DNA of 64,000 bases from Nemertoderma westbladi (lineage: Eukaryota > Animalia > Xenacoelomorpha), in the NCBI GenBank assembly GCA_032718475.1, contig JAUCBJ010008244.1, positions 1 through 64,000 on the forward strand. The letters run 5' to 3'. The notes beneath the pieces were generated by a model. It was not told the origin of the DNA. It did not search any database and was given only the letters and a program-made list of their open reading frames with translations. The position numbers and the translations under genes are program-made. Shown here piece by piece: positions 10,148 to 34,343 of this stretch. Position 1 is the stretch's first letter; every line of letters starts with the position of its first letter.

Positions 10148-10424
10148 AACCAATGAGACTGTAGTTATTTGATTGTAACCAATGTCGTGCAAGTTATATA
10201 TTAGCTGGACCAATAGTTATCTTTAAAAACCTGTTAGAACCTATAGAACAATCGAGAATTTTCTCGATTGATTGCAGCACAAATTTGCTATATAAAGGTG
10301 CGATTTGTTCATTAGTTATCAATCTTAATCTATCTCTCTATATTCAATTATTCTGAGTTATCTGATATTTGTTTATTCTGTTATTAGTATTCAGATTACA
10401 TTTTGTATAATTATCTGCAATAAA
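10148..10424 (+). promoter_or_regulatory. Putative LTR Pol II promoter and poly(A) signal
   Basis: Three CCAAT boxes (~10150, 10179, 10210), palindrome 10249-10270, TATATAAA 10289-10296, AATAAA ~10419. Confidence 0.55.
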
Positions 10425-12577
10425 TTCAGAAATACCGCTATCTGCTGTTCTTTCACCATGATTCACTACGGTGAACAAACTTAAGAACAGGATGGCCGGC
10501 TAGAGATCGGGCCGCAGCAATGAACGGGAACATCGGGGGAATGTAGACAAGAGACAACCCGCAATACCATCTCAGTTATTCGCCCATCGCCTGAAAGGTT
10601 AGACAGCGTTCGACGCCTTGCTACCTAAGTGTAAGACCAAAGATCAAAAGGTAGAAGTATTGACACGCTGTGAGCCTAAAATTACATCTTAGGGACTGTA
10701 CTGTCTTGATTCAGGAAAAAACCACAGTAGACCTTCACATTCCTACGGGGGGAGAGCAGGCAGATACTAGTACGCAGATAGGACATAGGCACACCGGTAC
10801 GAAGCATACACATTGGTAGGGTGCAGCAAACTGTACGCCTAACTCTTGCTAAGTACAGGTGCGTTTGCGACTATTTGTGGTACAACGGTGTCCATTGCAT
10901 TAGAACTTGTAGGCTAGGAAGGTTGTTGTGTTTCACCTGAATTGGGATTGTACCGTTCAGGCGGTAGGGCAGTTTACAACTAGGCGCAAATAAATTGAGG
11001 CTATTAGGGATATACTAACATCTACCGTGTCCCCACCAACGTCCTAATAGGAAGTTACCCAGCCTACCTAGGTGACTAAAATTCTAGATAGGAAGCCAGG
11101 ATAGCTATTAGTAACTGTACGCCTACAGTAGTAAACTAACACATTTCTTCTTAGTATTAGGGGCCTGGTAAATTAAAATTGCCGAATTCTGGGCGTAGCA
11201 TTAACCTTATGCCTGAATTTGAGTCCTGGAAATACGCAAGAGGGGAAGGAACCTTATCATTCGTGAGTATTGGACCTACAAGTTACAAAATTAGAATATT
11301 CGTAAAATGCACACCGTACCCAGTAATTATATATGTGAAGGAGCAAAACTGTTTTGACCGTTCAGAATTAACACACGCGCGTTAGAAATTATTTACACCT
11401 CAAAATATATAAAATTAACTTTTGTCCGTACTGTGCTTTGCCCGCTAGTTAGACATCTCCAAATCTCTGCCTCTGTACCTAGCTAGCGTCCCTTCGCCCA
11501 ACCATATAAATCACACCGCGGCAAAGTATACGAGCCCCTTAGTCCGTCAGTGAGTCAGCCTGATTTTAGGATTCGCTGCGCGGGATTTTGTTTTATCGAA
11601 GTTTGTCTGCTCGTAGACTGTTTTCTGCCTCACCGGTTATAAGAGATCGATACTGCAATATATTCGCTTACTTAGAGTTTACTGTTTTGGTGAGAAGGTC
11701 GGATTTATGATTTGATTCACAAACTTTACAGTAAGATATTGCAGGTATTGTTACTGTCTCTTCCATATAGTAGGAATGTGTTTTACTGAACTACGGTTCG
11801 GTAGGACTAAAGTTATTTGAAAATTTTGTATTTTGAGGTAAAAATTTATATTTGATTAGCTAAGTGCTAATTTTTTGAAATAAAATTTGATTTGAACCGC
11901 GTGTAAAATATTTTTGGAATTGAATACCGGTGTTTAAAAGGGTTTAAATACCATATTGTACCGGTACAAAATTTTCGTAAAAGTAAAACCTAACTCTTTT
12001 TTTTTTCAGGATTCAGTTCTCATTTCTAGACTGTAACGGGAGCAAGACCGTGTTTAGCAAGTTTGGGAGATAGATAACTCAACAACTTTGGTTGGGAAAA
12101 TCGCGCTTCGTCCGCAACGCTGAAAACGGAAAGGTTCACGTCCGGTTTGTATCTGGGAATCTGTTTTTCTGGAGAATTATTGGAGTGGGTGAGTTCGAAA
12201 AGTTGCATAAATAAGTTAGGCATTACCGTATTAGTTAAAATTATTGTGGGTTCCACTGTCTCAAGTATTTATGCATTCCGTATGATTTCTTTGTTCATTG
12301 CTGAATTAGTCCGTATTATTGTATTTAATTTACCTTTTGATAACGCATATCGTTATCCGATTTATTTGTTATAAAATTGGCCGCTAGGCTAATTTTATTA
12401 TATACTTATTCCGTGACATTTATTTACTGTAAAATTGGCCGTCTAGGCTAATTTTATCCATCTGCTATAAAATCGGCCGGTAGGCTAATTTTATATGACT
12501 GTAATTAGTACCGTTTAGATAAAATACGGTAAATTTGATACTTTGACACTCACTTTACTTGACTTACAACTACCGAA

Positions 12578-15500
12578 ATGAGTGACAAACAAGACTATAC
12601 GAAGAATACACAAACCGACTATGACTCATGCGACGGAGATAAGTCAGCAGCGGAAGAACAACAGGGGAAGACTCGCGAGCCTACCGAACCTACACCGTGT
12701 GCGTCACCAGTACATCCAACGGGAGTACCGGATGCCGTAGTACGAGGCGACGGCAGGACCGAGGACTTTCTAACTGTTCCGCAACCTAGATACAGGGAAA
12801 CGGACATGGTAAGTTCAGTAGGAAGCCAGGAGAGCGTAGTTAGAAGCGTCGGCGGTTACATGGCGCATATTACCAGGAGTATTGGAGAAGGCCAATGCAT
12901 ATTAGACAAGTTAACTGCTCCGATGTCTCGGTTCGAGTTCTACACTCTACAGGTGAGAGTACAGAGTAAAGTATATAAGTCCGTAGATAACCTAATTGGT
13001 CTACAAGATCTAGCTAGACAGAGACAGGATATGGACACTCAGCTTAGAATCCTCGAGGAACTAATGATCGCTAGAGAGAAACTGATTCAGTTTAAGTCGA
13101 CGATTAGACAGATACAACAGGAACAAGCGGACCAGTTGTTAGGTGAGTCAGTTTCGGACGAATTATTGCAACCCGAGGAAGAACAGGAACTGTACCGACT
13201 GGATGGACAATTGAAACACCTAACGGATCACTTACGCATGTGCGGCGAGGACGTCGGAGATTGGGAAACCGTGCCGGAGGCTACGAGGGAAACTTCGCTC
13301 GCACAAATCGAAACGGCACCGGGAACACTAGATCAATCACTGGTGAGTATTCGCAGCGAAATTGGCGAGGTGAGTATGGCTACGTCAGAAATTGCTCGAC
13401 AACAGCAGATCTACAGACAACAACAGGAGTGGGAGGAACAAACTCAATTACTAATGGCACAAGTAGCAGCAGAAGAAGAGAAACTACGCGTTGCGAATGT
13501 TGCGAGAATCTCTCACCTGCAAGAACAAGCTGAGTTGGAAGTAGCCGAAATGGAAAGGTTAGAGTTGGACATTGCACAACAAGCGGCAGCGGCCGAGTTA
13601 GCGCAACGAACGGCAGCGGCCGAGTTAGAGCGACAAGCGGCAGCGGCCGAGTTAGAGCGACAAGCGGCAGCGGCAGCGGCAGCGGCAGCGTCCGAGTTAG
13701 AGCGACAAAGATTAGCTTCAGAAGCGAGAACCGAAATGAAAAAACGGCAAATAAAGGCTCAATCAGCGATACGACAAGCGGAGTTCGAGGCGCAACAACA
13801 ACAAACGGAACAACGTGAGAAAGAAGTTAAACTTCGTTTCGAACTCGAGAAGAAGGCGAGAGAATTAGCCAACGCCAAGGAAGACCTGGATCTACAAGCC
13901 CGCGATCGATCAATGAGATCTCGAGACGGACATGACTTGGACCAGATAGAGGTAAGACATCGCCAAATTCAGGAACGGAAGAAGGAAGGAAGCGTAGGAG
14001 CACCCGGACGGGAACGACAATTAGTAAAGGACTTGTGTCAACGATTCCCACAGGTAACTCATATGTTTGCACCAGTTACGACTAAGGAACCTGTTTCGAT
14101 TGCGGGTAGTAGTAACATTTCTCCTATCCATGGTGCGGCGGAACACAGGTTTGTTATTCCGGACAAGTTTACACCGCCAAGAGCAACGTCGTCGCCTATT
14201 CCGAAAGTCAAGGTAAGTAACCCACCGACTACCGATCGTAGTAGTTTATTGACCGGACCTGCACTACTAACGACAAAACAGCAGAGTCCACCTTTGACAC
14301 CTAAACCCGTTACGCACTACGAATACCCAATTACGTTTCGGCCTACAAGGCCAGTTGATTCAAAAGCGGTTATTCGACCACCGGTCCAGTTTACATCGCA
14401 ATCTACGACTTCGAGGAAGACTTGTGAGCCTACCGAACAACGGAGACCAGTGGATACGCGACCGTTCAACCAGTTTACATCGCAATCTACGACTTCGAGG
14501 AGGACTTGTGAGCCTACCGAACAACGGAGATCAGTGGACGATGTTCCGAAACGAAACGTGAGAATTCGTACGACGCAACGGACACGAGCACGTCGACCAC
14601 CATATCCAGATGATAGTAGTACTTCGAGCGAATCGGATTACCCGAAACGCGAGGTATTTAGAACAGGGGCGGCCGATGAATATAAACGCGAGCGTTCAGA
14701 TAACTCCTTTGTAGACAATCCTCCACAGAATACACCAACACAGAAGGCGTTACAACCAACGGACGCAATCAGTACACAACAGTTCGCCGACATCCTGCGA
14801 CCAGTTGTTAACAAGTTGGCTCAGATCGAGGAGCGTCTGGAGGAAGTTCAAACCGATAGTTCGAGGAACACTGAATTCGAACACGATAGACACCCGAAGG
14901 AACCACAAAGACCGGTACCTTCAAAACACACATCGTATCAGGGAAAAGCGCCAAGAAGGGATATCAACCAGATTACCAACCAAGGACGCGAAACTCTGAA
15001 CGTTGCCGAGGAAATAGCGAAATTCGCAGCTAGACAAGGATTGCCGGTACAACAACCACCGAAGTTTTCCGGTAGCTCAAAACACTGGCACACATTCGTA
15101 GACTATATCGAATCTCAGATCGCCGTGTGCGCCTTTACATCACGGGAGAAGTTTAATTACCTGCTTCAAACGTTGTCAGGAGAACCTAAACGTTTGGCGG
15201 AGACCTTTGTTGGTGTACCGGACGCTTTCGAACTAGCGTACGATCGTTTAACTTCGATATACGGAGGTACAGTCAGCATGGCCAGGTCAGTGATAGAGGA
15301 ACTCTGTAAGGGAGGGGCTATCACTAAACCCGTCGACTTATTAAAACTGGCTGACGAGATAAAGAATGCTATCACTACTTTGAGATCCATTGGACAACTT
15401 GACTACGGGAATACCCCTACAGTCCTATTAAAGATCATAGGACGACTCCACCATCGACTTCGTCGGGAGTGGAGGAAGATCGAATACCAGCGGGAAGAGC

Positions 15501-18500
15501 GGGGTGGATTCTTAAAACTGGAGGATGTGTACCTTTTGATATCCAGGGAGGCAGTGGTAGAAACTCGATCCAACTACACTGACCAGCACATCGTGGCAGA
15601 AGGAATCACCTTGCCATCCTCAAACCGACAAAAACCCCAGACAACATCCACTAAGACGGCCACTTACGCCACACCGACGGAATCACGACAATTCTCGGAC
15701 GGTAGTAGGGTATCTGCGCCCATTGGGACAAAACAGACGAGACAGCAACTCAGTACCGACTTCAGCGGCTGCCAATACTGCGAGCATTTGGGCAAGCGGT
15801 ATATCGGTCACAAGTTGAGAGGTTGTCGACAGTTTCGCGAGTTAAACTCGGAAGAACGACGGCTGCAGATACGGCCATTGGACTCTTGTTGGCGGTGTAC
15901 GCGACACGGACACGTCCGTAAAGATTGCCCAAATACCGACACTTGTCCATCCTGTGGACGCAACCACGACGGTCTGCTCCACACAGACAGCCACACACCG
16001 ACAAAACGCTTCGCCAGGGAACACCCGGAAGCAGCAGCGAGATGTGATGCGGCCTACAGAAATCGAGAATCGAAAACGACTCCAACCTTTGTGACACATA
16101 TAAAGGATTGCTTCTCAGAACAATCCGGATCGTCGGACGAAGAGTCAGAAGACGACGACGTATATTCTGATGGAGACGAACAACCATCGATCGCGCTTCT
16201 GACGACTGACCAACTAAAGGGATTCAGCGTAATTCCGATCAAGATTACTGGCACAAAGGGGAGCAAGAGAATCTACACTATCCTGGATTCAGCCTCATCT
16301 CACAGCTACGTGGATGAGCAGATAGCTGACGTAGTGACGGATCTCAGACACGGTAAGCGCGTCAGTTACACCGTAAGTAGTATGCACGGACAACGTGCAA
16401 TACCAGTGACACGAGTTAAGTTGGACTTAGACTCTCTTCTTCCAAAATCGCAACACAGCGAGAGGGAGAGGTCTTTGTTACCCTTCAAGGATTTGACTTT
16501 TGCGGCCACCAAAGACTTTAGTAACCTACTAGGTCCGGTCCCAGAACAATCCTTGGAGGACCGTAAGTATTTCAGACACCTTGGTGTACCTGAATGTCCT
16601 GTCAATTATCGATCGGTAGCCATGCTGATCAGGACAGACCAATTCAACCTACATCAAGTGTGGGAAACCAGACCATCGGCAGTCGTGGCGGGAAACGCAT
16701 ACGCCTGCAGAACGCCGATAGGGTGGTATACTCGAGCGCCTGTGCGCACACTGGACATAAGTGACGAGGAAGACGATGTACAAAGTACATGTAGTCTATT
16801 AACTACAAATTCAATTCATTCCTTTTCACACGACATGGACCATACTACCTTACATACAAAACATGACAGACGTGTAACCAGTATGATAAGTCACAAGGAG
16901 CAGCTAATCCACCAGGTGAGTTTAGAACTTGGGGAGAAGACGAGTCAGCTAGAGATTCCATCGACGACAGATGATAACGCCGGAAGGCTTGCGAGTCTAC
17001 CTACCCCAACAACCTCAACAATGCCCATCGATATCGATGATGACGCGTTGAGAAATCATCAATTGGAACAAGCTGTATTGGACAAAGAATTAACGGAGAA
17101 GACTATCAGGTGGTTAGAACAAGATACAGCTGAACCTGGTAGCTACGAACCATGTATGTCGGAACAAGATAAACAATCTTTGAGGATCATGGAAGATACT
17201 ATCCGCCAGACGGAGGACGGACATTATGAGGTAGGGATGTTATGGCGTAGCCAAAATCCTAAACTTATAAATAACTACCCACTGGCTTTAAGACGTCTAC
17301 ACTCAATACGACAACGTCTATTAAAGGACGAGAAAGCCCATCTGCAGTACAACACTCAGATGGAGACGTATTTGACTAAGGGATACGCTATCCGAATGAC
17401 TAACCCAGAGATAGTGACTAACCAGACATACTACCTGCCACATCACTATGTGAGACACCCCGACAAACCAGACAAAGTACGTGTAGTCAATGACTGTGCG
17501 GCTCTGTTTGAGGGAATGTCCCTCAATAGCGAGTTGATGGATGGACCAAACATGAATAATTATCTTATGGGGGTGATTATGCGCTTCCGTCAGCGTCAAG
17601 TAGCCTTTACTTGTGACGTTGAAGCTATGTTTCACCAAGTGAGAGCGTTAGAGCGAGACAGAGACAGTTTGAGGTTCCTCTGGTACCCGGAAGGAGACTT
17701 AAGTCTACCACCGGCGACTTACCAAATGCAAGTTCGCGTTTTCGGTGCCAGGGACAGCCCAAACTGTACGATGTACGCCCTAAAGCAAGCCGCTAGAGAT
17801 CAGAAACACCTGTATGACCCAGAGATAATTAGGATTGTGGAACGTGACTTTTACGTCGACGACGGTTTACAGAGTTGCGACACAGTAGAATGTGCTACAA
17901 CAGTAGCACATCAATTACGGGACTGCTTAGCGGGCGGAGGTTTTAACCTCACCAAATTCGCCTCAAACAGTGCCGAATTAGTAGACTCATTCGGAACGAC
18001 TGAGCGTGGAGGTGGTGACATAGACCTAGAGTTCGAACCACTACCGACGACCAAGGTGTTGGGGCTCTTTTGGGACCCAAACACGGATAACTTTCGAGTG
18101 AAGGTGAGACTGGACAGTCAAGAAAACACACTGACAAAGAGATCATGCTTGTCAAAGTTGAGCCGATTGTTCGATCCATTAGGATTCATCAGTCCAATAA
18201 TACTGCAAGCCCGCATTTATATGCGCAGTATTTGGAAGGATGGACTGACATGGGACGAGCCGATCTCATCAGACCAAGTGGACTTATGGAAGACCTGGGA
18301 GGCAGAATTATCTTCGCTAGAGGATTATTCCATACCCAGAGTCTACTTTCCATTACAAACAACATTTCCTGACAACTTGGAATTACATTGTTTTTCCGAC
18401 GCCAGTGACAACGGTTTTGGTGTGGCAGCGTACTTGCGCAGACAAGTAGACTCAGAAGAATTCGATGTTTCGCTCATTACTTCTAAGGCAAAAACAATGC

Positions 18501-21085
18501 CTACTAAGTACATGACGACACCACGAGCTGAGCTACAAGCCGCAACACTATCAACCACAATTGTGAACCTTATACAGACGGAACTACAGTCAAGTTTACA
18601 GATATTTTATTGGACTGACGCGACGTTGGTTTTATTTTACATAAACAACGACACACTTGAATTCAAGACATTCGTAGCTAACCGTCGCGCAGAAATTCTA
18701 GACCGTTCAATAAAGGAAGATTGGCGACATTGTCCCGGACCACAAAACCCAGCCGATATTGCGTCGCGAGGAATGATGCCTGAGGAATTCTGTAAACCGG
18801 AGAACAAAGAATTTTGGCAACACGGTCCCCAATTCTTGCAGAAATCGACACAAGATTGGCCACCGTTATACGACAACAAGTCTAACACTATCCCTAAGGA
18901 CGCGGAAATCAAGAAACCAAAAAAGGGGAAGGCAAAGAAAAAGACGACGGCGGCAAAACTCAAGAAAAAACCGAAGGCGAAATGGAAAGATATAACTTCA
19001 AAGGTCAAGAGAGGAAGACTTGCGAGCCTTTCTACACCAGACATATCGCCAGACGGTCAACCAGACACGTTACTAGACGGTCAACCAGACATTTTGCCAG
19101 ACATGTCACAAAATGTTCTACCAGACACTAGTAACATACTGACAAATAGTAAAGCCGCAGTTTCCCTATTGGAGCGGCCTTGTATTGACAAACTACCAAT
19201 TTTGACACACTTGAGCAACCATAAGCACGGTGAAACCTCATGTATTACAGATGTGGGTAGTACCTACGCTAATGTAAATACAGGTGTTACTCTGCGCTCA
19301 AGAGACATACCAAACTTGCAACCTATGGTGAGACCTGGGATTAATGTCGGCAGAAAAATAAGTTTACCGAAACCTGCTGACCCCATAGAGTTCAAACCAC
19401 CATTAACGATCGACTTACAAAGTACCGACAATCAAGGTAAGAAGACGAAGAAGGACAAATTACTTGTAGACCCGGACGGATCAACAGTCAACAAGGGAAT
19501 ACTTACCGGCGGACCCGTGGGCCCTTCTAGTAATTCAAAACCTTCCAAATTCTTTGACTTACCTGATGACGTCACAAATACTTACGTCGACCGTATTGTA
19601 AACCTAACAGACTCTTGGTCAAACGCTTGCCGAAAATTAGCGTGGATTGTAAGTTTTGTACAATACGTTAAAGGCAAACGAGACTTTACACGTCGACTTA
19701 CATTGGCTGAGATTGACAGGTGTGAAATTAAATTAATTAGCCATTACCAACTGCGATATTTCGCGATATATCTATAAATCAAGGTCAACCAATCAAGTCG
19801 TCACCAATACTGAGTTGGAGTCCGATTATTTATAATGGCTTAATTTGTCATAAATCTCGGCTTCAAAACATTGACTTTAACACAAATTTTAGATACCCAA
19901 TAATAATACCGCAACACCACGAACTACAACGTGCAATGATACTGGACGCACATTTACATCTGAAACACGCTGGAAGACACCACTGTCTTTCCTACTTACG
20001 TACAAGATTTGTATTAATTAGACCCAGTAAAGCGTTAAGTTCAGTGACACGTACGTGTATTATTTGTAAAAAGGTACATTCTAGAATAGGTACCCAAGAA
20101 ATGAGTGAACTTCCACAAGCACGACTTCAAGCATTCAGACCACCTTTTACAGAGACTGGAATTGATTGCTTTGGTCCCATACATACGAAACGTGGACGTA
20201 TACTAGTAAAACGCTGGGGACTGATTTTCACATGTATGTCCAGTAGGGCAGTTCATATTGAACGTGTGATGGATCTTTCCACCAAAGCGTTTATACTAGC
20301 ATTGCGGCGATTTATCGCTAGACGCGGACTAGTGAAATGCTTGTACTCAGACCAAGGGACAAACTTTGTTGGTGCTCGAAATGAGATTGCTAGAGCCTTT
20401 AAGAAATTAGATCATGATCAAATCTCGAACGAACTACAACCTCACAAGATTGTTTGGAAGTTTAATCCTCCAGATAGTCCTTGGAGAGGCGGAGTCTGGG
20501 AGAGATTGATTAGATCTATAAAGACGGCAATGGCAAAAGTCATTCCAGTAAACCACATATTGACAGACGACCAACTGACAACACTGTTTGTTGAAATCGA
20601 GGCAATACTAAATACTAGACCAATAGTATTAGTACCCGATGACAAACAATCTCAGTTTGCTTTGACACCGGCACACCTGCTTATGCAGGCACCGACCACA
20701 TTGACGCCTATTTCTATTCCAATAGAAAGCGATAGCTACGGTAGAAAAGCGTGGAAAATCACGCAACTACTGGCTAACAAATTCTGGGAAATATGGCAAA
20801 ACCATTTTGCCCTCTATTTCTGCCAGAACAACTTGGTACAATAACACCCGCGCATTAAAGCCGGGAGATCACGTGCTGTTAGCGGAAGTGAATCTAAAAA
20901 GACGCTTCTGGATAACAGGTGTAATTTTAGCCACACATCCATCTATGGATGGAGTGACAAGAACTGTGACGGTACGGACAATTGACGGTCGTACAGTAGA
21001 CAGACCAACTCAACGTCTCGTACTTCTTGAAGAGACTCGTAACGAGTCTGGAGACTACAAATCTCCACCTAATACTAGTAAATAA
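12578..21085 (+). pseudogene. gag-pol: BEL/Pao gag-pol polyprotein with two frameshifts (~19770, ~20810)
   Basis: 2399-aa ORF: Pao-type gag (PKFSGSSKHW), CQYC/CWRC/CPSC knuckles, ILDSAS protease, YLPHH, FYVDD RT, FSDAS RNase H, NPADIASRG; integrase in 19936-20844 (GIDCFGP, SDQGTNF, WERLI) and C-terminus in 20807-21085. Confidence 0.95.
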
Positions 21086-21744
21086 TTAGGAGTTTACAAA
21101 TAGATTTCACGGACCTGTACACCGTAGTAAAGACAGCGGTAGAATTCCATTGTCTTTATATGTGAACATTGAGGGTAGTACCCTTATGTGTCACATAGGA
21201 GCGGGATTTGTAGGTATAAGAAATGGAATTCTACTTGGAACTCACAATATTGAGACATTTTCGAAATTTTAGACAATCCATTTGGATTTGAAAAATTTTT
21301 AAAATTTTCTCCAGTAAATAGATTTCAGGGTACAGTCGGGTGGAACTTAAAATTAGAGAAACAAGAGAGGAAGACTTGCGAGCCTTTCTTAAAATTTTAA
21401 TTAAATTTTACACGGTCTTGTTTCAATAAGTTACGTCAAAATAGACTCCCCTATATTTATTACTAATTCTTGACTGCTTATTTTCTGATAATAGTTTGGG
21501 ATCAAAAGGTGAGTATTTTAGACTCACAGCCAGTTTAGCCCAAATTCGTTTTTATTTCGGCAAAAAATTTTAGATAAGAAGCAGCGTGTCATTAAAGAAA
21601 CCCTAGATCTTAGGCTATGGGTAGGAGGTTAGAGCGTTGTCGAGCCAAAAGGGCAGACGAAAACTCTCACGTCTCCTCACAACTAACTACAACCTCTGTT
21701 GTATTCCCTCTAGTAGTAATGATTATGTAACTACACCTCTAATT

Positions 21745-23343
21745 ATGGAGAAAGGGATACAAGGAGAGCCGAGATGGGGATATGATATCCAAGAGGAGGC
21801 AGCAGCGCCATTCGAAAGATTTGGAGCTAAAGATTACACTATATTTGGAAAAAAGGAATTATCAGAAAGTACAGCGAAACTCGCGAGAACTAAATATGAC
21901 ACGACGGTATCGTGGAGGTTACGAACGAATCACGGCAGACGCGTGCGCCTATCGGTCACCTTGGTGATGATTTCGAAGTAACTACTACGATCACTGACGA
22001 TCCTTTAGAGGAACTTCTTGAGATAGAAAGGAACCTCCAGAAGAAATCTCAGACGGAGATTCGACAACTTGAAGCAACAGATGCTATAGTTTGTATACAA
22101 CCTTCAGAAACCTACCAACCCATAGACCCAGATGATTACGATTATAGTGTGGGAGGAAGCGCTCGACCGATTGGAGATCTTATATACGAACGAGTGTGGT
22201 ACCCTGCCAATACGATGTGGTAAATGTGGCGTCGCTGGACATCATATGACAAAGTGCAGTGGAAAGCACATTACTACGACTCAGCTAATCTGTGGATGGT
22301 GTGGGGATCAAGGGTCTCATACCTTTTATACTTGCTGGAGATTTATGGCTCAATGTACTTATTGCAATATAAAGGGACATCGAGCATCTGAATGCCAACT
22401 AAGAGACATACCCTATGAACACGAATCTGTAAAACTCGTGAGGAAATTATTCGATGAGTGGGAAGATTTAGCCGACGAACATGTATCGGCACAAAGAAGA
22501 CGGTTTCCGATGAGAGCGCATCTTGGATTTTGGGCGGTAAATCCTCAAACGATGATGTCGGAAGGATATATCTCCGCTATGCCCCAATATGACGAACTTA
22601 TCGAGGTAGTCGATATTTTGCCCCACGACAGCGGATTCCGAGTAGTGCGCGAGTATCTACTACAGATTCACCCGGATAACAAAAACACGTGGAATTTTCA
22701 GAAAGTCGTTAATCGCATCACGTATGGTGAATTCGATCGTTTCCGAACTGAAAAGCGGAACAAAGGAGCTTGGTTAACCGTCGCATGGGCATACCGAGCC
22801 GCGTTTTACCATAAACGTATACGAGCGAGTGTATTCGAGGAAGAGGAGGTCCTAGAGGCGACAAATCCAGCCACTCCGGTTGCGCCGTCTGCACGTCACC
22901 CTCGGGAGGACGGACAGGGTAGGATCATACGGGTCCAGAAAGTGGGCCAACAATTAAAGAAAATTATTAATATAGAAGAACGCAAGGGAGTTGAGCCGAC
23001 CATTCGAATTACTCGGGATACGGTATCGCTTCCTAGAGAACCAACAGGAGGATCGGGACACACACCAGCTGATCAAAAGGGGGCGCAAGCTGCTCTTGGG
23101 TCTGCGTCGTCCGCTTCTCGCGCGTTCCCAGACGTTCTACCAACTGTAGTGACAACTGATCGGTCACGAGGAATCGGTCGAGGTTTTGGGATGCCAAATA
23201 GACGAATTTGCGAGGAAATGGTCGCACCGTCTCTCAACGTCCAAACGAAACCAGTGACTCGCCCCACAAGTCCCATATCGCGAGCAAAGTCACCTGTGCG
23301 CAGTTTTCGAGGACGCGGCAGGGCTCGATCCACTAAGCGATAA
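21745..23343 (+). CDS. Accessory 3' gene of element 1: triple CCHC zinc-knuckle protein with a basic C-terminus, spread over three overlapping frames
   Basis: CGKCGVAGHHMTKC, CGWCGDQGSHTFYTC, CTYCNIKGHRASEC; ends RSFRGRGRARSTKR; homologous to 28189-29638. Confidence 0.8.
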
Positions 23344-24352: not shown

Positions 24353-26255
24353 TATAGAATTATATTCCCTAAATGCCGTGGATTTTCAAAATTTTTATTT
24401 TATTCGAATTAACTTTGTAAAAGATTACTTTGAGTCCTCATTTGTATTTGATTTATCATTTGTACGACCTTTAGTCAAGTGGTTCAGTAGCTCAGTCGGT
24501 AGAGCGTTGGAAATTATATGTGTAGTAGGTATTGAGTTCGAATCCTAGTAAGCGCGAATTATTTTTTGTGCAGAATTTCAACTCATTTAAATTGACCGCT
24601 ACAAATTAAATTGCATTTGTCTGTACCTAGATTAACCAATGAGACTGTAGTTATTTGATTGTAACCAATGTCGTGCAAGTTATATATTAGCTGGACCAAT
24701 AGTTATCTTTAAAAACCTGTTAGAACCTATAGAACAATCGAGAATTTTCTCGATTGATTGCAGCACAAATTTGCTATATAAAGGTGCGATTTGTTCATTA
24801 GTTATCAATCTTAATCTATCTCTCTATATTCAATTATTCTGAGTTATCTGATATTTGTTTATTCTGTTATTAGTATTCAGATTACATTTTGTATAATTAT
24901 CTGCAATAAATTCAGAAATACCGCTATCTGCTTTTCTTTCACCATGATTCACTACGGTGAACAAACTTAAGATCAGGATGGCCGGCTAGAGATCGGGCCG
25001 CAGCAATGAACGGGAACATCGGGGGAATGTAGACAAGAGACAACCCGCAATACCATCTCAGTTATTCGCCCATCGCCTGAAAGGTTGGACAGCGTTCGAC
25101 GCCTTGCTACCTAAGTGTAAGACCAAAGATCAAAAGGTAGAAGTAGTGACACGCTGTGAGCCTAAAATTACATCTTAGGGACTGTACTGTCTTGATTCAG
25201 GAAAAAACCACAGTAGACCTTCACATTCCTACGGGGGGAGAGCAGGCAGATACTAGTACGCAGATAGGACGTAGGCACACCAGTACGAAGCATACACATT
25301 GGTAGGGTGCAGCAAACTGTACGCCTAACTCTTGCTAAGTACAGGTGCGTTTGCGACTATTTGTGGTACAACGGTGTCCATTGCATTAGAACTTGTAGGC
25401 TAGGAAGGTTGTTGTGTTTCACCTGAATTGGGATTGTACCGTTCAGGCGGTAGGGCAGTTTACAACTAGGCGCAAATAAATTGAGGCTATTAGGGATATA
25501 CTAACATCTACCGTGTCCCCGCCAACGTCCTAATAGGAAGTTACCCAGCCTACCTAGGTGACTAAAATTCTAGATAGGAAGCCAGGATAGCTATTAGTAA
25601 CTGTACGCCTACAGTAGTAAACTAACACATTTCTTCTTAGTATTAGGGGCCTGGTAAATTAAAATTGCCGAATTCTGGGCGTAGCATTAACCTTATGCCT
25701 GAATTTGAGTCCTGGAAATACGCAAGAGGGGAAGGAACCTTATCATTCGTGAGTATTGGACCTACAAGTTACAAAATTAGAATATTCGTAAAATGCACAC
25801 CGTACCCAGTAATTATATATGTGAAGGAGCAAAACTGTTTTGACCGTTCAGAATTAACACACGCGCGTTAGAAATTATTTACACCTCAAAATATATAAAA
25901 TTAACTTTTGTCCGTACTGTGCTTTGCCCGCTAGTTAGACATCTCCAAATCTCTGCCTCTGTACCTAGCTAGCGTCCCTTCGCCCAACCATATAAATCAC
26001 ACCGCGGCAAAGTATACGAGCCCCTTAGTCCGTCAGTGAGTCAGCCTGATTTTAGGATTCGCTGCGCAGGATTTTGTTTTATCGAAGTTTGTCTGCTCGT
26101 AGACTGTTTTCTGCCTCACCGGTTATAAGAGATCGATACTGCAATATATTCGCTTACTTAGAGTTTACTGTTTTGGTGAGAAGGTCGGATTTATGATTTG
26201 ATTCACAAACTTTACAGTAAGATATTGCAGGTATTGTTACTGTCTCTTCCATATA
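24353..26255 (+). repeat. 3' LTR of element 1
   Basis: Direct repeat of 9867-11769. Confidence 0.97.
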
Positions 26256-26839: not shown

Positions 26840-28110
26840 TGTACGCGCTTTTGAAGACCTTTAGCAGTTTAACCTGCCAAAATTTATATGTCTTTTTGGT
26901 TTACAAATAGACTTTAGAAGTTGACAAATATTTAATACCAATAAACACAACATTAGCAGAAGCCAGCCTAGTGCGCGTCCATTCACCCGCTGGATATACC
27001 CGGGGGGCTGGATTCTGAGGGCTTAGATTATTATTGCAGTGTAAGCTTACTGTATTGTATTATTCGATTGATCGTTAATAAATAATTTCTGACTAATATT
27101 ATTTACTTTCGGGAAATATTAACAGTTCCTTTAGGACGTGGCGCTCTATCTAGGTAAACAGAGATATGACTTATACTAATCACAACGGTAAGTCGGTAAG
27201 GCTTATGATTCACGTATGAGGCGCATTCTTTAGGAAATGCTTAGTTATCAGTAACAATCAGGCACACTACCGGTAACACACAATACTGCTCACTAATTTG
27301 CAGACCGTCAATGAATTTTATCATATATAAAGAGAACAGCAACGGACCCATGTAGTGCTTATCAAATAGCATTAAATTCACTACAAACCACAATAATATA
27401 AGTCGCAATCGCTATATATAACCCGTCTCTCTAACCTGTAGTGTATCAAGAAAATTGGGAAATTTGGGTTCTTTATTAATGTTCTCCAAATAATATTCAA
27501 CCAACTAATACAAAATATGACAACAGTAAAACATTAAGACGGTAGGTTAAGATATGATATGACAAGTAATGATATGTGATATATGACATAGACTGGACTG
27601 ATAACAGTTATACGCTCTATAATCTTGAGCCTACTAATGTTTCTTCTAAAGTATGAAAACGAATTGATTCTAGAGCCGGTGTTCCTGGCCTAGATAGAAG
27701 GAACACAACAGTATCACAAAAACAGTAAGACTGAACACTCCTAGTATGATCGGCCGAATATCTCCACATCAACAGAAAAAATCGCTCTGATTGGCTTAAG
27801 CTAAACAAAGAACCATGTGTCCAATGGCCGTTTCCATGTCAGCAACCAGCTGTTAGATGTCGTAATCTGAATCATCAAGGCTAAGCTGTGTAAAGGTATT
27901 TGGTGCATTGCAGGTTTTTTGCCTTACCATGTCCGCCAAAACACGTATATAGAAGAATGACTGTTATGTCCGTTAAAACACCTATAACGGTACCTTGCGG
28001 GCGAGGGGAATATATATATAGTTAGAGAGCCTTTTAGAGTATTCCAGCGCCTGGGGGGAAACTGGATTGCGAAGCAAAAGGGCCAGTTATATCCCACAGA
28101 AGCTTTTACA
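26840..28110 (-). repeat. 3' LTR of element 2 (1271 bp)
   Basis: Near-identical to 36574-37839 (about 5 substitutions and one 5-bp indel). Confidence 0.96.
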
Positions 28111-28188
28111 CCGCTCCCAGAAAATGGGATTTGAGTCTATCAAATATACAAAATCACAGTTTCTAATATACGTAAATACTCTAAACAG

Positions 28189-29638
28189 TTAGTCTTTCTT
28201 GCGCGGACGGCGTTTACGCAGTTTTTTAAAGCTAGCCAGAGTCCTTTTCTCTTTGGGGCGAGCCACTTTACAAGGAGGGCTATAACTCCTGGGTGAAGGG
28301 TGCAATATGATTGCATCAGAGGGTGTAGGATTATGGTCGGTGTATCCGCCAGTCGAAGTACCGGGTTGATTGACATCAACGTCAGGTGAGAGGGGTCTAA
28401 CGGCTTTGAGAGCTCGTTTCAAGACAGCCGCTCTTACGGGTCCTTTACGAGTGGTCTGAACGAGGGCCGTGGGTGGACCATAGGCAGTTAGAAACCTCCG
28501 GGGTTTAATGGTTCTTTCCAACTCGCGTTCGCGGGCTCGGTATTCGTAAGGCCGTCGATATACTTCCTGTAACTCGGGGTGTGAGTTAACAAACAAGTCT
28601 CCATAGTCCGGATCCTGACGGATATAATTGATTAAGTTATAGGAATGAAGGTCGCTAGGATTAACACTCCTGAGAAATTTGCGTACGAATTTGGTTGAAA
28701 TACATTCTCCGACGCGCTTCAGTAGCTCGTAACTTGATATGCGTGATTTCTGTTCAACCGAAGCAAATAGATAAGGATGGAACGCATAAACTCCTTCGTA
28801 AGCGCGTCCGGGATAATAGCGATGGCGCGAATCACAATGTAAATCAGCGTTCGCTTCCCAAGCTCTGATGTAACGTAGTGTGATCATTTCATCTACGCTT
28901 TCCAAATCGTGATTAAAAGGGCAGTCGAAACTGGCATGTCCCTTTAGTTGACAATGGTGACATTGAGTCATAAATTGAGGGCAAACCGCAAAGATATGCA
29001 AGTTATTGAGTCTGCAATATGCGCAATAAATTTCCATAGTCGGTTGTTCTTGGAAATAGGAACAGCGGACGTTGGTGTCCATGGGCGTATCGTGGTCTCT
29101 CGATGCGCATAACCGACAACGTTGCCGAGAAACATAGTTGGCATGGCGATAATTGTACGCAGTGAGACACTGTGGACCTTGATACCATTCTAGGATGTAA
29201 TCGTTGTCGCTGTTCCGGGGCGCGATAGGCTGAATCTCCTCAGATTCTAGGCATATTGGTTCGTCTTCCCAGTCTGTTACGAATAGAATTTTCGTGATCT
29301 ATTCTCGGTTTACCGTTACGACTCCGCTGGGTATGATATTTAAATAGAACCATTTCCCTTTCGGTGTCTACATCGTCCGTATCATGTAAATCGATAGGAT
29401 GGCCGGTCGTTAAGAAGTCCATATACGTACCATTACGATTCGTATAGCGAGTGGTGAATTTTCGATAGTCCAATTCACGCGCAAGTTGCTCTTGGGACAT
29501 CGGCGGTTCGATATAACGACCATCGTCCTCCGTAATGGTTGGATCGGCTTCACCGCGTATTAAGCTATCCACAAATGCTTGTAAAGGTAGAGTATATCGC
29601 TCCCTAATACCAAGATCATCTTCTATCAACTCCGTCAT
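28189..29638 (-). CDS. Accessory 3' zinc-knuckle gene of element 2 (two overlapping frames, switch near 29240-29300)
   Basis: The 297-aa ORF frame stays open upstream of its Met to ~29298 and adds CRLCASRDH; then CAYCRLNNLHIFAVC and CHHCQLKGHASFDC; ends KKLRKRRPRKKD. Confidence 0.8.
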
Positions 29639-31268
29639 ATCTGCTATCTGAGTTTATTAATATCAAATAAGTTTATATTTAGGCGAGCGGGCGTCGCTGC
29701 CTACTTCTCTTTGCCCCCGGACAGTGGGATTCTCAGCGCCGATGTACCATTGTCGCGGTGTTTACGCCAACATGTAGCAACAGCACGACAACGATAACCG
29801 GCACAAGTCACTCCACTGTCCATCCCAAAGGCTTGAATCCACTTTAGGTTCTTTCTATAGGAGAGTTGGGTTACTTTCACAATTGCGACTAGCTACTGTA
29901 AACATACTTTAGCAGTAACATTCACCTATAAACGCACAAATTCCACACAACTGTCACCAATTGTACACATACAGGCCATTTGTCTGTTAGTCAGTGCCTT
30001 CCAGAATGTCACGTTATTACTGTGTATCCTTGGATACTAACAGTGTGCTATGTATTCTCTATGCTATGCAATGGGACAAGCTTTCTATTGTTCTTTTAAC
30101 TTGCTTCTAATTCTAGCGTGGGTGTTGCTATGGTGACATTATGGAAAGCTAGCGGTAGAATTAGAGTAATTCTCATGCATACAGATCTGGAATGCTATTT
30201 AATAGTAATTCTTTAATTGTCAATATCCTCTTTATACATGATTTTATTAATTTTATCGGCTATTGACTATATGTTGGAGATTCTCGCACTCTAATACACT
30301 CAATAGGATGAATCTCCGCTCCCATGATCTATTAATTAATGGAATTTTGGGAATGTTATAAATTGCACAAAATGACAATTTATGAAATTCATTTAAAATA
30401 TGAATTTAAATTTATTCCCGTGAATTTTATTATTTGATGTTAAAATTGACACAATTTGATTCCAGAGCAGGTCTGGGAACATAGGATCCTTAATTCTATG
30501 AAAATTGTCTTTTAAGAGTATCGGTAAGTGCTGCGATATCTTAATTGACTAGAAATTTTAAAGGATCTGAATTTTACAGATTTTAATAAATATTAAATTA
30601 ATATTTAAGATGGGCACCGATTTATTCCAGAACTTGTCTGGGGACGTTAACCACTGATTCTAGAATTGGTCTTTCAAGTATATCGGTGGGTGCCGCGATA
30701 TCTTAATCGACTAGAATTACAGATGGTCAAAAGGTTTAACAGATTTATTTGCGTTTTACGCTACTGTTAGAGGGACATCACGCTACTATATGTATTATTA
30801 TATATGGTATGAGAGCAATATCGCACGAAGCAATGTCAGTGTGAAGAGGCAAGTCGTTTCCAAGGTCTACCCAGAGCTTGGTTTAGCCCAGACACGAGGA
30901 TCTGAACTTTGCATTCCTAATACTCTGCCTACCAATAATACTTGAATATAGTAGTGGCTTTATTGTACTTTAATAAGTACGGACATTTCATCTTACTGTA
31001 GTCACGTATTTATAATATGATACGGACAGTAAGGAAAGAGAAAAATAATTATTTCTTGCCGTCGCACTAAATATATATTATAAGTAATTACGTACGTAAT
31101 AAACACTATAAATATATTGCACTAATCTACTAAATAATCACTAAAATAACATTCTACTAAATAAAATTAAAGAAAACGATTATAATAAAATTACATAATA
31201 ATACATACATAAATATAAAATAAAAACAAATATAAAATGATATAGTCACACGCCCACTCCATATATTA

Positions 31269-34200
31269 TTACGTTATGGAGTCCCTAGATATTTGTCGGA
31301 TTAGGGAAGTGGTCGTAGGAAGAGTATCTTGCCTTCCATAGTTTCCGGACAGTTTTCGGTCTCTTTCCAGTAAACATAAACGACCAGCTGGGCGATTGAG
31401 TTGTTGTGTTACTTTCTCCGCTCCCTTGGCCTGTCTAATCTCCGTAGTGGTAAGATGAGGAGGCCATTCTTCTTCTTCTTTACTTAAGAAGTCGGATCCA
31501 CCTAACCAGCCTGGATTATCTATCAGTTCTTGAGGAGTTGCTCCTCTGGAAGCGATGTCGGCTGGATTAATCGTCCCAAGGCAATGTCTCCATTGATCTA
31601 CATTGGAGTTAATATCGTCATTATCTGAGGAGTATGGTGTTCCCTCAGTTGGATCGTCCACATTACTGCTCTCCACTTCCCATTCCTTTACTTGGTATAC
31701 CTGTTGTTGAGGTAATCTCTCTTTGAGAGTTCTACGGGAAGGGCCAGTGAAGTACCAACCTACTCTAGTTCTTACCGCATAGGTTTGTAGTGGCTGCGGT
31801 TGAGCAGGCCGTTTCTCCAATGTCTCGAGCGCCTCATGCGCGTTTTGGCCGATGAGTATTTGCACTCCAGGATAATCTGTCTGGAATCGAGGTATCTTAA
31901 GCCTTGCACCTACATAGTAATCTGCCGTTATGGTAGATTTCCAAACCTGCATAATTCCGGACATATTCAACTTAGTTCGGAATTTGGGTTGTCCAGCAAA
32001 GATGTCTTCGGCTAGTTCTTGATCGATGAATGTTCCTGTGCTGCCGGAGTCAAGGAGGGCGTTCACTATGTAACTTTTGTTAGGACCGTGAACTCTTACC
32101 TGCACTACAGGAAATTCTCTGATTCCTATGTTGGAAGTTGGAGCTTTCCAAGATGGTTGTCTGTCAAAGGTAGTTGGGGGGAACTCATTGTCGGTGTCAT
32201 TTTCATACGTAAGTGCTCGATACACTGCGGTATTTATTAGGTAACAGGATTCGTTGGCGTCGGAGAATTCGTCCGTATAGAATCCTTCCATCTCAGACTC
32301 TTGATCAGTGTCATTTACATCACTGAATTGGACATGTAGTTCGGGTTCACTTACCTGACTCGGGTTGTTTCGTTCGAATTCACTGCGTAACAAGATGTGA
32401 TGTTTCGCACCGCACTTTGCACACTTTACTTCGGAGTAACAGGTTCGCCGTTGGTGTCCTGGTCTGAGGCAATGATAGCATAACCGCTTATCCCACATGA
32501 CTTCACGTCTGTCTACCGGGGATTTCTTTAGGAATTCAGCACACACACTCAAACGGTGGGGCCCGTCGCACAGCGCACATTTTGGTTTGATGTTACTCAC
32601 TTTACCTTGGGTAACGTTATGCACTCTCGTTCTTTCTTCGGGCTTTCTTCCGTGAATTCTCTTAGGAGACGTAGGAGGAGTTGTTGTTACCTGTTCTCTC
32701 CGGTCACTGGTTCGAGACTTATATTTACTTACGTCTTTATAGGTCTTGTTGTCATAGTAGGATTTTGCTGTGTCTTTCCCGCTGTCCTCTTCCTGAGAGA
32801 CTTGGCTTTCGCCGTCGTCAGTATAACACACTGGTGTTACCCTTCTCCTAGAAACGGGTTTCTCACTTACCTTATTTTCCGATGTTTTCTCTCTGGACTG
32901 CTTTATGAGTTGTAATTTTACTTCACTATCTAAGAAGGACATGAGATCAGCCATGGTAGGGTCTCGTTGTTGTTGTTCCATCATATATAACACTTTCTTG
33001 TCCCAGCGTGTACCTACTCCACCCTTTGGTAAAGTAGATGCTAAGGCTCCTACAACCATAGAGTTCTGGTATTCATGAGACTCACCTAACCAATCTAGCT
33101 GTCTACAGATCTCCTGAATTTCATCGGAAAATTCTATAATCCCGCTGCTAAGAAACTTTCGGGGCGCCATTAATTTCGCATATAAATACCTAGCTATGTT
33201 AGTCCTATTACCATACCTGATGTTTAATGTATCCCAAACTTGTCTTAATCCATCTGGATGTCCAATAAATTTTAACGCCATTAACTTGGGAGGTCCTTCC
33301 AAGCATTCGATGAGGTATCTGAGTTTCTCTCCGTTAGATAGCACAGAATTCTGTATGTTATCTTTGTAATATTCATTAAAAGGTAACCATTTCATCTCAT
33401 CTCCATTGAACTTGACGATCTCTCCAACCTTTACCGCTTGACGGGCTTCGGTTCTAGCCATTTGACGCGTAAAACTTTCTTGAGCCATCGTATTATTGAA
33501 TATAGAATTATCGGTATATAAATTTCTCGGATTATGATCAGGTCTATATGGAATATTATTATCAACAGGTTTATAATCACCCTGAATAGGGTTTACTATA
33601 GGAGTTTCTACTTCACTAGCAGTATAGATGCGTGTAGGCTCCACACCTTGCGCATGAGATACTTCAGACCTAACGGGTTGACACATTGTTACAGGGGGTG
33701 GTGGTATACCCTTTTGTAAATTGACTAATTTATCGCGTTCTAACGCGATACTTTGCTGCACCTTTTGCAACTCTAACCTACTTTCCCTTACTGTTCCCTT
33801 GAGCTGCTGAACAGTCTCTTCCATTTCCCGGACCTGCTGAGAGGAGCACAAACAGTGTTCCCTCAGCTGCTCGAGCAGGAGACCCATCTCCCGTCGTCCC
33901 TCAGCTACCCACTCAACCGCCGAAGCGGGAGTCGCCAACGTAGTAGCGGGCGAGCGAGAGACGACGGGCGATAAATTCTTGATATCTCGCTCGGCGTCCA
34001 GGACGGGTTCGGACTCGGGAACAGTCCTACTGGGCACAGGTAGTTTAGTACTGTACAAAGGGAATTTATAGGCAGGTTCTGGGAGTACAGGTGTCTCTAT
34101 CTTTCTTTCCGCTTCTACTGTTGCCATTGCCTCTGCCGCCTTTCTTTCCGCTTCTGCTGTTGCCATTGTCTCTGCCGCCTTTCTTTCCGCTTCTGCTGTT

Positions 34201-34343
34201 GCCATTGCCTCTGCCGCCTTTCTTTCCGCTTCTGCTGTTGCCATTGCCTCTGCCATCTTCCTTTCAAGACCCTGTCCAAGTCTAAGACTCATTCTAACAC
34301 CTTCCAAAAGACTATCTGACAGTGCCCGTTTTGTGTCAGACAT
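31269..34343 (-). CDS. gag: BEL/Pao Gag-protease fused in frame to the end of the RNase H region; RT and integrase absent
   Basis: KFNGDEMKW, CALC/CYHC/CAKC knuckles, LLDSGS, then directly WRHCLGTINPADIASRG; 13-aa AEAMATAEAERKA repeats at the N-terminus. Confidence 0.9.
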   Translation of the reverse strand: MSDTKRALSDSLLEGVRMSLRLGQGLERKMAEAMATAEAERKAAEAMATAEAERKAAETMATAEAERKAAEAMATVEAERKIETPVLPEPAYKFPLYSTKLPVPSRTVPESEPVLDAERDIKNLSPVVSRSPATTLATPASAVEWVAEGRREMGLLLEQLREHCLCSSQQVREMEETVQQLKGTVRESRLELQKVQQSIALERDKLVNLQKGIPPPPVTMCQPVRSEVSHAQGVEPTRIYTASEVETPIVNPIQGDYKPVDNNIPYRPDHNPRNLYTDNSIFNNTMAQESFTRQMARTEARQAVKVGEIVKFNGDEMKWLPFNEYYKDNIQNSVLSNGEKLRYLIECLEGPPKLMALKFIGHPDGLRQVWDTLNIRYGNRTNIARYLYAKLMAPRKFLSSGIIEFSDEIQEICRQLDWLGESHEYQNSMVVGALASTLPKGGVGTRWDKKVLYMMEQQQRDPTMADLMSFLDSEVKLQLIKQSREKTSENKVSEKPVSRRRVTPVCYTDDGESQVSQEEDSGKDTAKSYYDNKTYKDVSKYKSRTSDRREQVTTTPPTSPKRIHGRKPEERTRVHNVTQGKVSNIKPKCALCDGPHRLSVCAEFLKKSPVDRREVMWDKRLCYHCLRPGHQRRTCYSEVKCAKCGAKHHILLRSEFERNNPSQVSEPELHVQFSDVNDTDQESEMEGFYTDEFSDANESCYLINTAVYRALTYENDTDNEFPPTTFDRQPSWKAPTSNIGIREFPVVQVRVHGPNKSYIVNALLDSGSTGTFIDQELAEDIFAGQPKFRTKLNMSGIMQVWKSTITADYYVGARLKIPRFQTDYPGVQILIGQNAHEALETLEKRPAQPQPLQTYAVRTRVGWYFTGPSRRTLKERLPQQQVYQVKEWEVESSNVDDPTEGTPYSSDNDDINSNVDQWRHCLGTINPADIASRGATPQELIDNPGWLGGSDFLSKEEEEWPPHLTTTEIRQAKGAEKVTQQLNRPAGRLCLLERDRKLSGNYGRQDTLPTTTSLIRQISRDSIT

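What the first reader, a model, noticed from the sequence alone, without database searches (positions are those of the whole stretch)
21745..23343. Conserved extra gene in the env position encodes a triple zinc-knuckle protein, not an envelope
Seen: CGWCGDQGSHTFYTCWRFMAQCTYCNIKGHRASEC aligns with CAYCRLNNLHIFAVCPQFMTQCHHCQLKGHASFDC of element 2. WEDLADEH...RRFPMRAHLGFWAVNP aligns with WEANADLH...RYYPGRAYEGVYAFHP, and CIQPSETYQPIDP with CLESEEIQPIAP. Both proteins end in Arg/Lys-rich tails and show no obvious signal peptide or TM helix. Conservation across such divergence implies selection. Inference: a nuclear RNA-binding accessory factor (export, splicing, chaperone or anti-silencing).
Basis: partly seen in the sequence, partly recalled or inferred. 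Interest (0 to 1): 0.85.

Follow-up and report, generated by a model that had tools for sequence, protein, structure and literature searches.

The report
Spliced zinc-knuckle accessory gene in retrotransposons
Two distantly related jumping genes carry, where retroviruses keep their envelope gene, a gene for a three-zinc-knuckle protein with no membrane anchor and no full-length relative found, which appears to be made from its own spliced RNA and likely binds the element's RNA to help its unspliced genome leave the nucleus.

Summary
The homology is real. Two BEL/Pao LTR retrotransposons in the window carry a homologous extra gene 3' of pol (BLASTP E=3e-19). It has three zinc knuckles, a conserved ~140-aa domain after them (0 of 1000 shuffles reach its score), basic tails and no hydrophobic segment. 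It is as conserved as their Gag and protease, is not a Gag duplicate, and has no full-length relative in any protein search run.

(1) The gene is broken into three frames in element 1 and two in element 2. (2) One public run holds two GT..AG joints; one skips all of gag-pol and lands 31 nt before the start codon, like an env-type subgenomic RNA. (3) Element 1 carries nine copies of a 20-bp near-palindrome, about every 2 kb, even inside gag-pol; element 2 has none.

Best reading (0.45, untested): a CERV/Rev-like RNA-binding accessory protein from the spliced RNA, acting on intron-retaining element RNA. The main precedent is Cer1 CERV (Gypsy; no sequence relation found). Folding failed, and dN/dS among copies was not obtained. 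New variant of a known kind; interest 0.62.

The parts
9867..11769 (+). Element 1 5' LTR (ends TAT...ATA, not TG...CA; target-site duplication ACTAC)
   Evidence: 8 substitutions, 0 gaps against the 3' LTR over 1903 bp
10598..12009 (+). Intron 1 (GT..AG), from the LTR into the 5' leader; removes the LTR 3' part and the LTR/internal junction
   Evidence: joint 10595>12008 in run X4 only (one contig, short side 22 nt); site sequences
12010..12188 (+). Non-coding exon 2 (no AUG)
   Evidence: lies between the two joints
12189..21713 (+). Intron 2 (GT..AG), 9525 nt, holding all of gag-pol; acceptor 31 nt before the extra gene's AUG
   Evidence: joint 12187>21713 in run X4 only (one contig, short side 29 nt)
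12578..21085 (+). BEL/Pao gag-pol, broken into three frames (breaks near 19741-19777 and 20726-20844)
   Evidence: (DUF1759, Peptidase_A17, Integrase_H2C2, DUF5641)
21745..21981 (+). Extra gene, piece 1 (78 aa from the first AUG in exon 3 with both -3 A and +4 G)
21900..22223 (+). Extra gene, piece 2 (acidic; holds CIQPSETYQPIDP)
22216..22395 (+). Three tandem zinc knuckles (in piece 3, 22126-23343)
   Evidence: Pfam zf-CCHC E=0.0087, below the gathering cut-off
22396..22830 (+). Conserved post-knuckle domain of unknown fold
   Evidence: no usable model
23251..23343 (+). Basic C-terminal tail and stop
   Evidence: 10 K+R, 0 D+E in 30 aa
12666..24057 (+). Nine dispersed copies of a 20-bp near-palindrome, starting at 12666, 14415, 14499, 16982, 19013, 21369, 23364, 23842, 24038
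24353..26255 (+). Element 1 3' LTR
26840..37839 (-). Element 2: BEL/Pao with gag-protease only (RT, RNase H and most of integrase absent), TG...CA ends, target-site duplication CCTAG
   Evidence: (6 substitutions, 1 gap in 1276 bp)
29240..29638 (-). Element 2 extra gene, piece 1 (AUG at 29638, just after two AG dinucleotides; splicing not tested)
28189..29298 (-). Element 2 extra gene, piece 2: knuckles, conserved domain, basic tail

Best explanation
This is an accessory gene in the env position of a lineage of BEL/Pao LTR retrotransposons; it appears to be expressed from a spliced subgenomic RNA and encodes a three-zinc-knuckle protein without a membrane anchor that likely enters the nucleus, likely binds the element's own RNA, and would help intron-retaining RNAs (the genome and the gag-pol message) escape splicing or decay and be exported, as CERV does for Cer1 and Rev for HIV. 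Shown: position, homology, knuckles, absence of hydrophobic segments, conservation equal to Gag, and two GT..AG joints in one run. Inferred: both joints occur on one molecule; the knuckles bind RNA (from the known behaviour of CCHC knuckles, recalled); the basic tail is a nuclear signal; and the protein acts on export. The 20-bp repeated motif of element 1 is a candidate binding site, with no direct link shown.
For: Homology beyond the knuckles. Conservation equal to Gag and protease. The gene is kept in element 2 although most of pol is lost. Of 15 listed joints (25 in all), the only 2 with GT..AG ends are in X4 alone and fall on polypyrimidine acceptors and GT donors; none of the other 13 is GT..AG. 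The second joint lands 31 nt before the first AUG in exon 3 with both -3 A and +4 G. Intron 1 removes the LTR/internal junction, so the packaged genome must keep both introns, which is the problem CERV and Rev solve (inference). Precedent: CERV's C-terminal half is the ORF in the env position of Cer1, comes from a spliced mRNA, has a Cys finger and is needed for gRNA export (PMC10309623, passages). At 4 variable stem pairs of the motif, every departure from Watson-Crick gives G-U on the sense strand (weak, about 1 in 16 by chance).
Against: No binding, localisation or export data. Each joint rests on one contig with a short side under 30 nt, in a run whose kind is a guess ('DNA?'). Both window copies are frame-broken, and no internal donor or acceptor explains the breaks in element 1. 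NES-like and NLS-like patterns are loose and not at shared positions. Three of the nine motif sites are in the 3' UTR shared by spliced RNA, unlike a Rev response element, and the 4 sites folded with flanks do no better than shuffles. Element 2 has the gene but no comparable motif (best 3 sites against 2 in shuffles). Only two members of the family are known. No usable structure (pLDDT 38).
Confidence: 0.45

Rival explanations
1. A sequence-specific anti-silencing factor or transactivator working on DNA or chromatin, like Arabidopsis VANC: a dimer binds the 20-bp dyad spaced about every 2 kb along the element and keeps full-length copies open.
For: The motif is a dyad with half-site G[GA][AT]AG[AG]C[TC][CT][GA]. 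It occurs only in element 1, with 0 expected by chance. Spacings are 1749-2567 bp. It is read in two different frames inside gag-pol, in segments that 120 homologues do not cover (0-6%). VANC binds short motifs accumulated in its own elements (PMC5735166, passages).
Against: CCHC knuckles are known for single-stranded nucleic acid, not dsDNA dyads (recalled). No site lies in the LTR promoter. CpG observed/expected is 0.7-1.33 across the window, suggesting little CpG methylation to counter. Element 2 lacks the motif. About half of Gag-Pol is uncovered by homologues anyway.
Confidence: 0.2
2. A cytoplasmic RNA chaperone or small-RNA decoy: a free nucleocapsid-like protein that aids packaging or reverse transcription, or shields element RNA from piRNA/siRNA attack.
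For: The third knuckle resembles the MLV nucleocapsid finger, weakly (E=0.35). The protein has tandem knuckles and basic, Pro-rich tails.
Against: Both elements keep knuckles in Gag. A separate spliced message and a conserved extra domain are more than a chaperone needs (inference).
Confidence: 0.2
3. A once-captured host zinc-knuckle gene or Gag piece that is now decaying baggage.
For: All three frame breaks in the two window copies. Knuckle spacing resembles a fungal tandem-CCHC protein (36% over 67 columns). Element 2's knuckle region scores slightly above shuffles against its own Gag (1 of 300).
Against: Protein identity equals Gag's while DNA similarity is nearly gone (best blastn 40 bp, E=0.044). 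0 of 120 BEL/Pao polyproteins have this knuckle spacing, and all 53 with a triple Gag knuckle end in His. A dedicated acceptor is in use. Gag-pol of the same copy has two breaks as well, so the breaks are not specific to this gene.
Confidence: 0.12
4. An unusual envelope or cell-to-cell transmission factor.
For: Env position and env-like splicing. Small fusogens exist in env-less elements (bioRxiv 10.1101/2025.03.14.642691, passages).
Against: No hydrophobic segment in any of the 5 pieces (max 0.83). The cysteines are in knuckle spacing.
Confidence: 0.03

Closest known systems
CERV of C. elegans Cer1 (Gypsy/Ty3; PMC10309623)
   Same: ORF in the env position that is not an envelope, made from a spliced mRNA, with a Cys-rich finger and no homologues outside its host group; needed for export of unspliced RNA.
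   Different: CERV shares exons with gag, has a C4-type finger and a G-protein-like domain, and sits in a Gypsy element. Here the two exons seen upstream are non-coding, there are three CCHC knuckles, the element is BEL/Pao, no sequence relation was found, and function is untested.
ORF3 types of bdelloid rotifer LTR elements (PMC5408684)
   Same: Non-env ORF3 after pol, typically a separate spliced unit.
   Different: Those are GDSL esterases, DEDDy exonucleases or TM proteins in other lineages; none in the passages read is a knuckle protein.
VANC/VANDAL anti-silencing system (PMC5735166)
   Same: An element-encoded accessory protein together with many copies of a short motif in the same element.
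   Different: VANDAL is a plant DNA transposon with 8- to 9-nt motifs in non-coding tandem arrays and shown dsDNA binding. Here a 20-bp dyad is dispersed, partly in coding DNA, with no shown link to the protein.
[quoted passage not shown]
   Same: Same superfamily, same genomic slot.
   Different: No signal peptide, TM anchor or glycoprotein features here. These elements (16.4 and 11 kb, LTRs 1.9 and 1.3 kb) exceed the usual 4.2-10 kb and 0.2-1.2 kb.
Host tandem-CCHC proteins (CNBP/Air-type; names recalled) such as P0002 of Verruconis
   Same: Three closely spaced knuckles.
   Different: The match stops at the knuckles; the post-knuckle domain has no hit.

Membership tests
BEL/Pao LTR retrotransposon (element 1) | LTR pair with target-site duplication | tested here: met
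   1903-bp LTRs, ACTAC duplication
BEL/Pao LTR retrotransposon (element 1) | DUF1759 Gag, triple knuckle ending in His, Peptidase_A17, integrase last with DUF5641 | tested here: met
   1588 relatives at E<=1e-20, best 43-44% identity
BEL/Pao LTR retrotransposon (element 1) | TG...CA LTR termini (usual for LTR elements, recalled; not superfamily-defining) | tested here: not met
   element 1 ends TAT...ATA; element 2 ends TG...CA
Envelope glycoprotein | Signal peptide and TM anchor | tested here: not met
   max 19-aa hydropathy 0.12-0.83 in 5 of 5 pieces; no dedicated predictor was run
Envelope glycoprotein | Position after pol and spliced subgenomic RNA | tested here: met
   (one run, one contig per joint; element 1 only)
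CERV/Rev-like export factor (works-like claim) | Encoded by a spliced RNA that lacks gag-pol | tested here: met
   joint 12187>21713; run kind is a guess
CERV/Rev-like export factor (works-like claim) | Nuclear import and export signals | tested here: inconclusive
   basic tails; loose NES/NLS patterns not at shared positions
CERV/Rev-like export factor (works-like claim) | Response element confined to intron-retaining RNA | tested here: inconclusive
   6 of 9 motif sites in intron 2, 3 of 9 in the shared 3' UTR
CERV/Rev-like export factor (works-like claim) | Required for export of unspliced RNA | not testable with these tools
   needs knock-down and RNA FISH
CERV protein family (membership) | Sequence or fold homology to the H, M, G domains | tested here: inconclusive
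   no such hit; CERV itself was not fetched and the models were unusable
BEL/Pao Gag fragment | Gag-type knuckle spacing and capsid homology | tested here: not met
   0 of 120 homologues share the spacing; no DUF1759 hit; core against own Gag 36 and 1 of 300 shuffles
VANC-like anti-silencing system | Multiple copies of a family-specific motif | tested here: inconclusive
   met in element 1, not in element 2
VANC-like anti-silencing system | Protein binds the motif as dsDNA and removes silent marks | not testable with these tools
   needs EMSA or ChIP

The most novel reading that the evidence does not exclude
A lineage of BEL/Pao elements has become 'complex', like HIV. Double splicing makes a new three-knuckle regulator that recognises a 20-nt signal laid out every ~2 kb along the element, even inside gag-pol linkers, and so licenses full-length RNA or chromatin of its own family against host surveillance. 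This would be an independently evolved Rev/VANC-type protein-plus-signal system in an animal retrotransposon.
Probability: 0.25. Interest if true: 0.85.

Novelty: new variant of a known kind. Interest (0 to 1): 0.62.

Why it matters
How LTR retrotransposons export unspliced RNA and evade silencing is worked out for few elements, and most extra ORFs in the env position have no known function (PMC10309623, introduction passage). This case supplies an unrelated protein family, mapped candidate splice sites and a candidate cis-signal in one element, so the question can be tested directly with binding and knock-down assays. It also warns against calling BEL/Pao ORF3s 'env' by position.

Tried and rejected
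No host genome was held, so copy-level tblastn and dN/dS were not possible. The element 2 splice joint and the indels among family copies in the extra gene remain unexamined.

Protein searches: none at E<=0.001 among 84 candidates; none at E<=0.01 among 2427 with the two-sequence alignment; both covered only lengths of about 200-709 aa. phmmer over 1.84 billion representatives gave 3 hits: 2 knuckle-only (Coffea, Verruconis) and 1 repetitive protein judged chance. Atlas: best 0.88 to fungal DUF8363 clusters, 173 of 256 features, a lead only; no usable hit for the post-knuckle domain. NCBIfam gave 0 families for 5 pieces. PDB sequences gave only weak finger or repeat matches. Related-locus scans found 0 of 142 (metagenomes) and 0 of 44 (viral).

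Both AlphaFold jobs gave pLDDT about 38, so fold search and complex prediction were not run. Motif scans: 26 single matches in metagenomes, none with tblastn similarity to gag-pol or either extra ORF, and 0 in viral contigs. Introns as the cause of the frame breaks were rejected for lack of sites. No tRNA or Rfam hit. No RNA holder listed. Uneven depth in X4 was not used, because contig depth cannot rank genes. Only 2 of the 40 shown variant rows (779 in all) fall in the extra gene, too few for dN/dS; the 32 in gag-pol were 24 synonymous to 8 not, a selected sample. Earlier scan findings: nothing in 3 look-ups.

Full report
Setting. The finding lies in a 16.4-kb BEL/Pao LTR retrotransposon (element 1, 9867-26255, +). 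Its 1903-bp LTRs differ by 8 substitutions and no gaps, with target-site duplication ACTAC. Pfam finds DUF1759, Peptidase_A17, Integrase_H2C2 and DUF5641. The closest RT/RNase H relatives are 43-44% identical. The named ones are nearly all marine invertebrates (corals, mussel, urchins), so the host is probably an animal not closely sampled (inference). No host genome is held. Element 2 (26840-37839, -) is a second BEL/Pao element with LTRs differing by 6 substitutions and 1 gap. It keeps gag and protease but only two small remnants of the rest of pol.

Observation. The quoted motifs are present. ORF 22126-23343 aligns with 28189-29298 at 27% over 176 aa, E=3e-19. The similarity is not only knuckle cysteines: the 140 aa after the knuckles score 94 against 29+/-4.9, with 0 of 1000 shuffles reaching it. 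Both products end in basic tails (10 and 14 K+R in 30 aa) that do not align with each other. No piece has a hydrophobic window above 0.83. The CIQPSETYQPIDP motif is out of frame with the knuckles and only weakly significant (7 of 1000). No donor or acceptor inside the 5' part of the gene explains the breaks. Gag-pol of the same copy has two breaks. Family contigs show loose ends or small gaps close to three of the four breaks of element 1, so the breaks are likely private to this copy or to the assembly; this was not resolved.

Selection. Over aligned codons the core has 32% identity, with nucleotide identity 0.47/0.55/0.32 at codon positions 1/2/3. Gag CA gives 30% and 0.45/0.53/0.32; protease gives 27% and 0.46/0.59/0.30. 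The best DNA match between the elements is 40 bp. The position pattern is partly built in by aligning on protein, but parity with Gag indicates long co-inheritance under constraint. dN/dS among copies was not obtained: only 2 of 40 shown variant rows (779 in all) fall in the gene.

Origin. It is not a Gag duplicate. All 53 of 120 BEL/Pao homologues with a triple Gag knuckle end in His, and 0 of 120 show this gene's spacing. Against its own Gag the core scores at background for element 1 (36 of 300 shuffles) and slightly above for element 2 (1 of 300). No full-length relative was found (lengths about 200-709 aa only). phmmer over 1.84 billion representatives gave 3 hits, two limited to knuckles and one repetitive. 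The Atlas gave a 0.88 lead to fungal DUF8363 clusters for the core and nothing for the post-knuckle domain. Related-locus scans were empty. Both folds failed at pLDDT about 38. The knuckles may descend from a host tandem-CCHC gene or a retroelement nucleocapsid; this is open.

Splicing. Four of the nine listed runs were laid on 9867-23400. Of 15 joints shown (25 in all), two have GT..AG ends, both only in X4: 10595>12008 and 12187>21713. The second skips 9525 nt, all of gag-pol. The sites read AAG|GTTAGA, T9CAG|, TGG|GTGAGT and TTCCCTCTAG|. The first AUG in exon 3 with both -3 A and +4 G is 21745, 31 nt after the acceptor; 6 upstream AUGs open frames of only 1-8 codons, taking a start near 10320 inferred from a TATA box at 10289. 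Caveats: one contig per joint, short sides of 22 and 29 nt, and X4's kind is a guess ('DNA?'). If X4 is DNA, the joined form would be an intron-less copy, which still implies splicing (inference). X1 and X3, with 19628 and 8381 records laid, show neither joint. Intron 1 removes the LTR/internal junction, so the replicating genome has to retain both introns (inference). Element 2 has two AG dinucleotides just before its AUG that did not pass my pyrimidine rule; its splicing is untested.

A dispersed motif. A 20-bp near-palindrome occurs 8 times within 3 mismatches, all in element 1, with 0 expected in 100 shuffles. A weight matrix adds a ninth site (14499), then drops from 23.6 to 13 bits. Main spacings are 1749-2567 bp. 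Five sites lie in gag-pol, are read in two frames and fall in segments that 120 homologues cover at 0-6%, although about half the polyprotein is uncovered anyway. None is in the LTRs. It can be read as a DNA dyad or as a weak sense-strand hairpin. Departures at four variable pairs are all G-U on the sense strand, but the four sites folded with flanks are no more stable than shuffles. Element 2 has no comparable motif (3 sites at best against 2 in shuffles), though it has lost most of pol. Public collections gave 26 single, unrelated matches and 0. A link to the extra gene is a hypothesis; Gag or a host factor could bind it instead.

Mechanism. The most likely reading (0.45) is a CERV/Rev-like accessory protein: made from the spliced RNA, imported through its basic tail, bound to element RNA through the knuckles, and favouring survival or export of intron-retaining RNA. 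The splice joints and the anatomy are observed; import, binding and export are inferred. Rivals are a VANC-like chromatin factor on the dyad (0.2; CpG o/e of 0.7-1.33 suggests little methylation to counter), a cytoplasmic chaperone or small-RNA decoy (0.2), decaying baggage (0.12) and an envelope (0.03).

Literature. I saw passages of PMC10309623 (CERV: env-position ORF, spliced, needed for gRNA export), the first of five parts and passages of PMC5408684 (rotifer ORF3s), and passages of PMC5735166 (VANC), PMC3118150 (few BEL/Pao carry env), PMC2774666, PMC6431247 (Burro), PMC8220671 and bioRxiv 10.1101/2025.03.14.642691. Eight full-text searches listed no title or abstract start describing a zinc-knuckle ORF3 in BEL/Pao; several searches showed only part of their hits. 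The library lacks most subscription papers, I read no supplements, and Repbase-type annotations, where such an ORF may already be noted, were not available.

Verdict. A real, lineage-restricted accessory gene with env-like expression and no known full-length homologue, broken in both window copies. The kind is known (non-env ORF3, CERV); this protein family and the dispersed motif were not found described. New variant of a known kind, interest 0.62.

Noticed in passing
window 9867-11769 and 24353-26255: Element 1's LTRs begin TAT and end ATA at both copies, flanked by a clean 5-bp duplication, instead of TG...CA; this may mean an integrase with altered end specificity.
   Followed up: partly
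window 10002-10059 and 24488-24545: Pol III-like A and B boxes (tRNA-like) in the U3 part of element 1's LTR, with a second B box at 10608; ARAGORN and Rfam found nothing. Possibly an insulator-like or SINE-derived piece.
   Followed up: partly
window 12578-14800 and 18860-19777: Element 1's Gag-Pol has about 750 N-terminal residues and a roughly 300-aa RNase H-integrase linker that none of 120 homologues cover.
   Followed up: partly
window 21480-21515: A strong donor (AAG|GTGAGT at 21509) shortly after an acceptor-like AG, upstream of the extra gene; a possible 14-nt micro-exon, not among the joints shown.
   Followed up: no
window 21745-23343 and 28192-29640: Both extra genes have the highest CpG observed/expected of the 11 regions measured (1.25 and 1.33).
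   Followed up: no
window 34400-36530: Element 2's long 5' leader holds tandem ACCGGT-containing repeats and a 290-bp duplication; a 115-bp old duplication lies at 30440-30716.
   Followed up: no
window 251-5200: A 46-bp satellite of about 107 copies; its first 388 bases also match element 2's LTRs at 85%, suggesting a related LTR next to or giving rise to the array.
   Followed up: no
window 51801-56644: An LTR element that looks Gypsy-type by its translation, with 208-bp LTRs (96.6% alike) and open gag and pol frames.
   Followed up: no
window 41867-45890, 47681-51026, 9193-9873: Frame-broken LINE-like elements by their translations, one with an ORF1 holding a PHD-like Cys cluster (labels recalled).
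   Followed up: no
window 23416-23730 and 59529-64000: A short AT-rich tandem array in element 1's 3' UTR, and a roughly 1.5-kb tandem repeat at the window's end.
   Followed up: no
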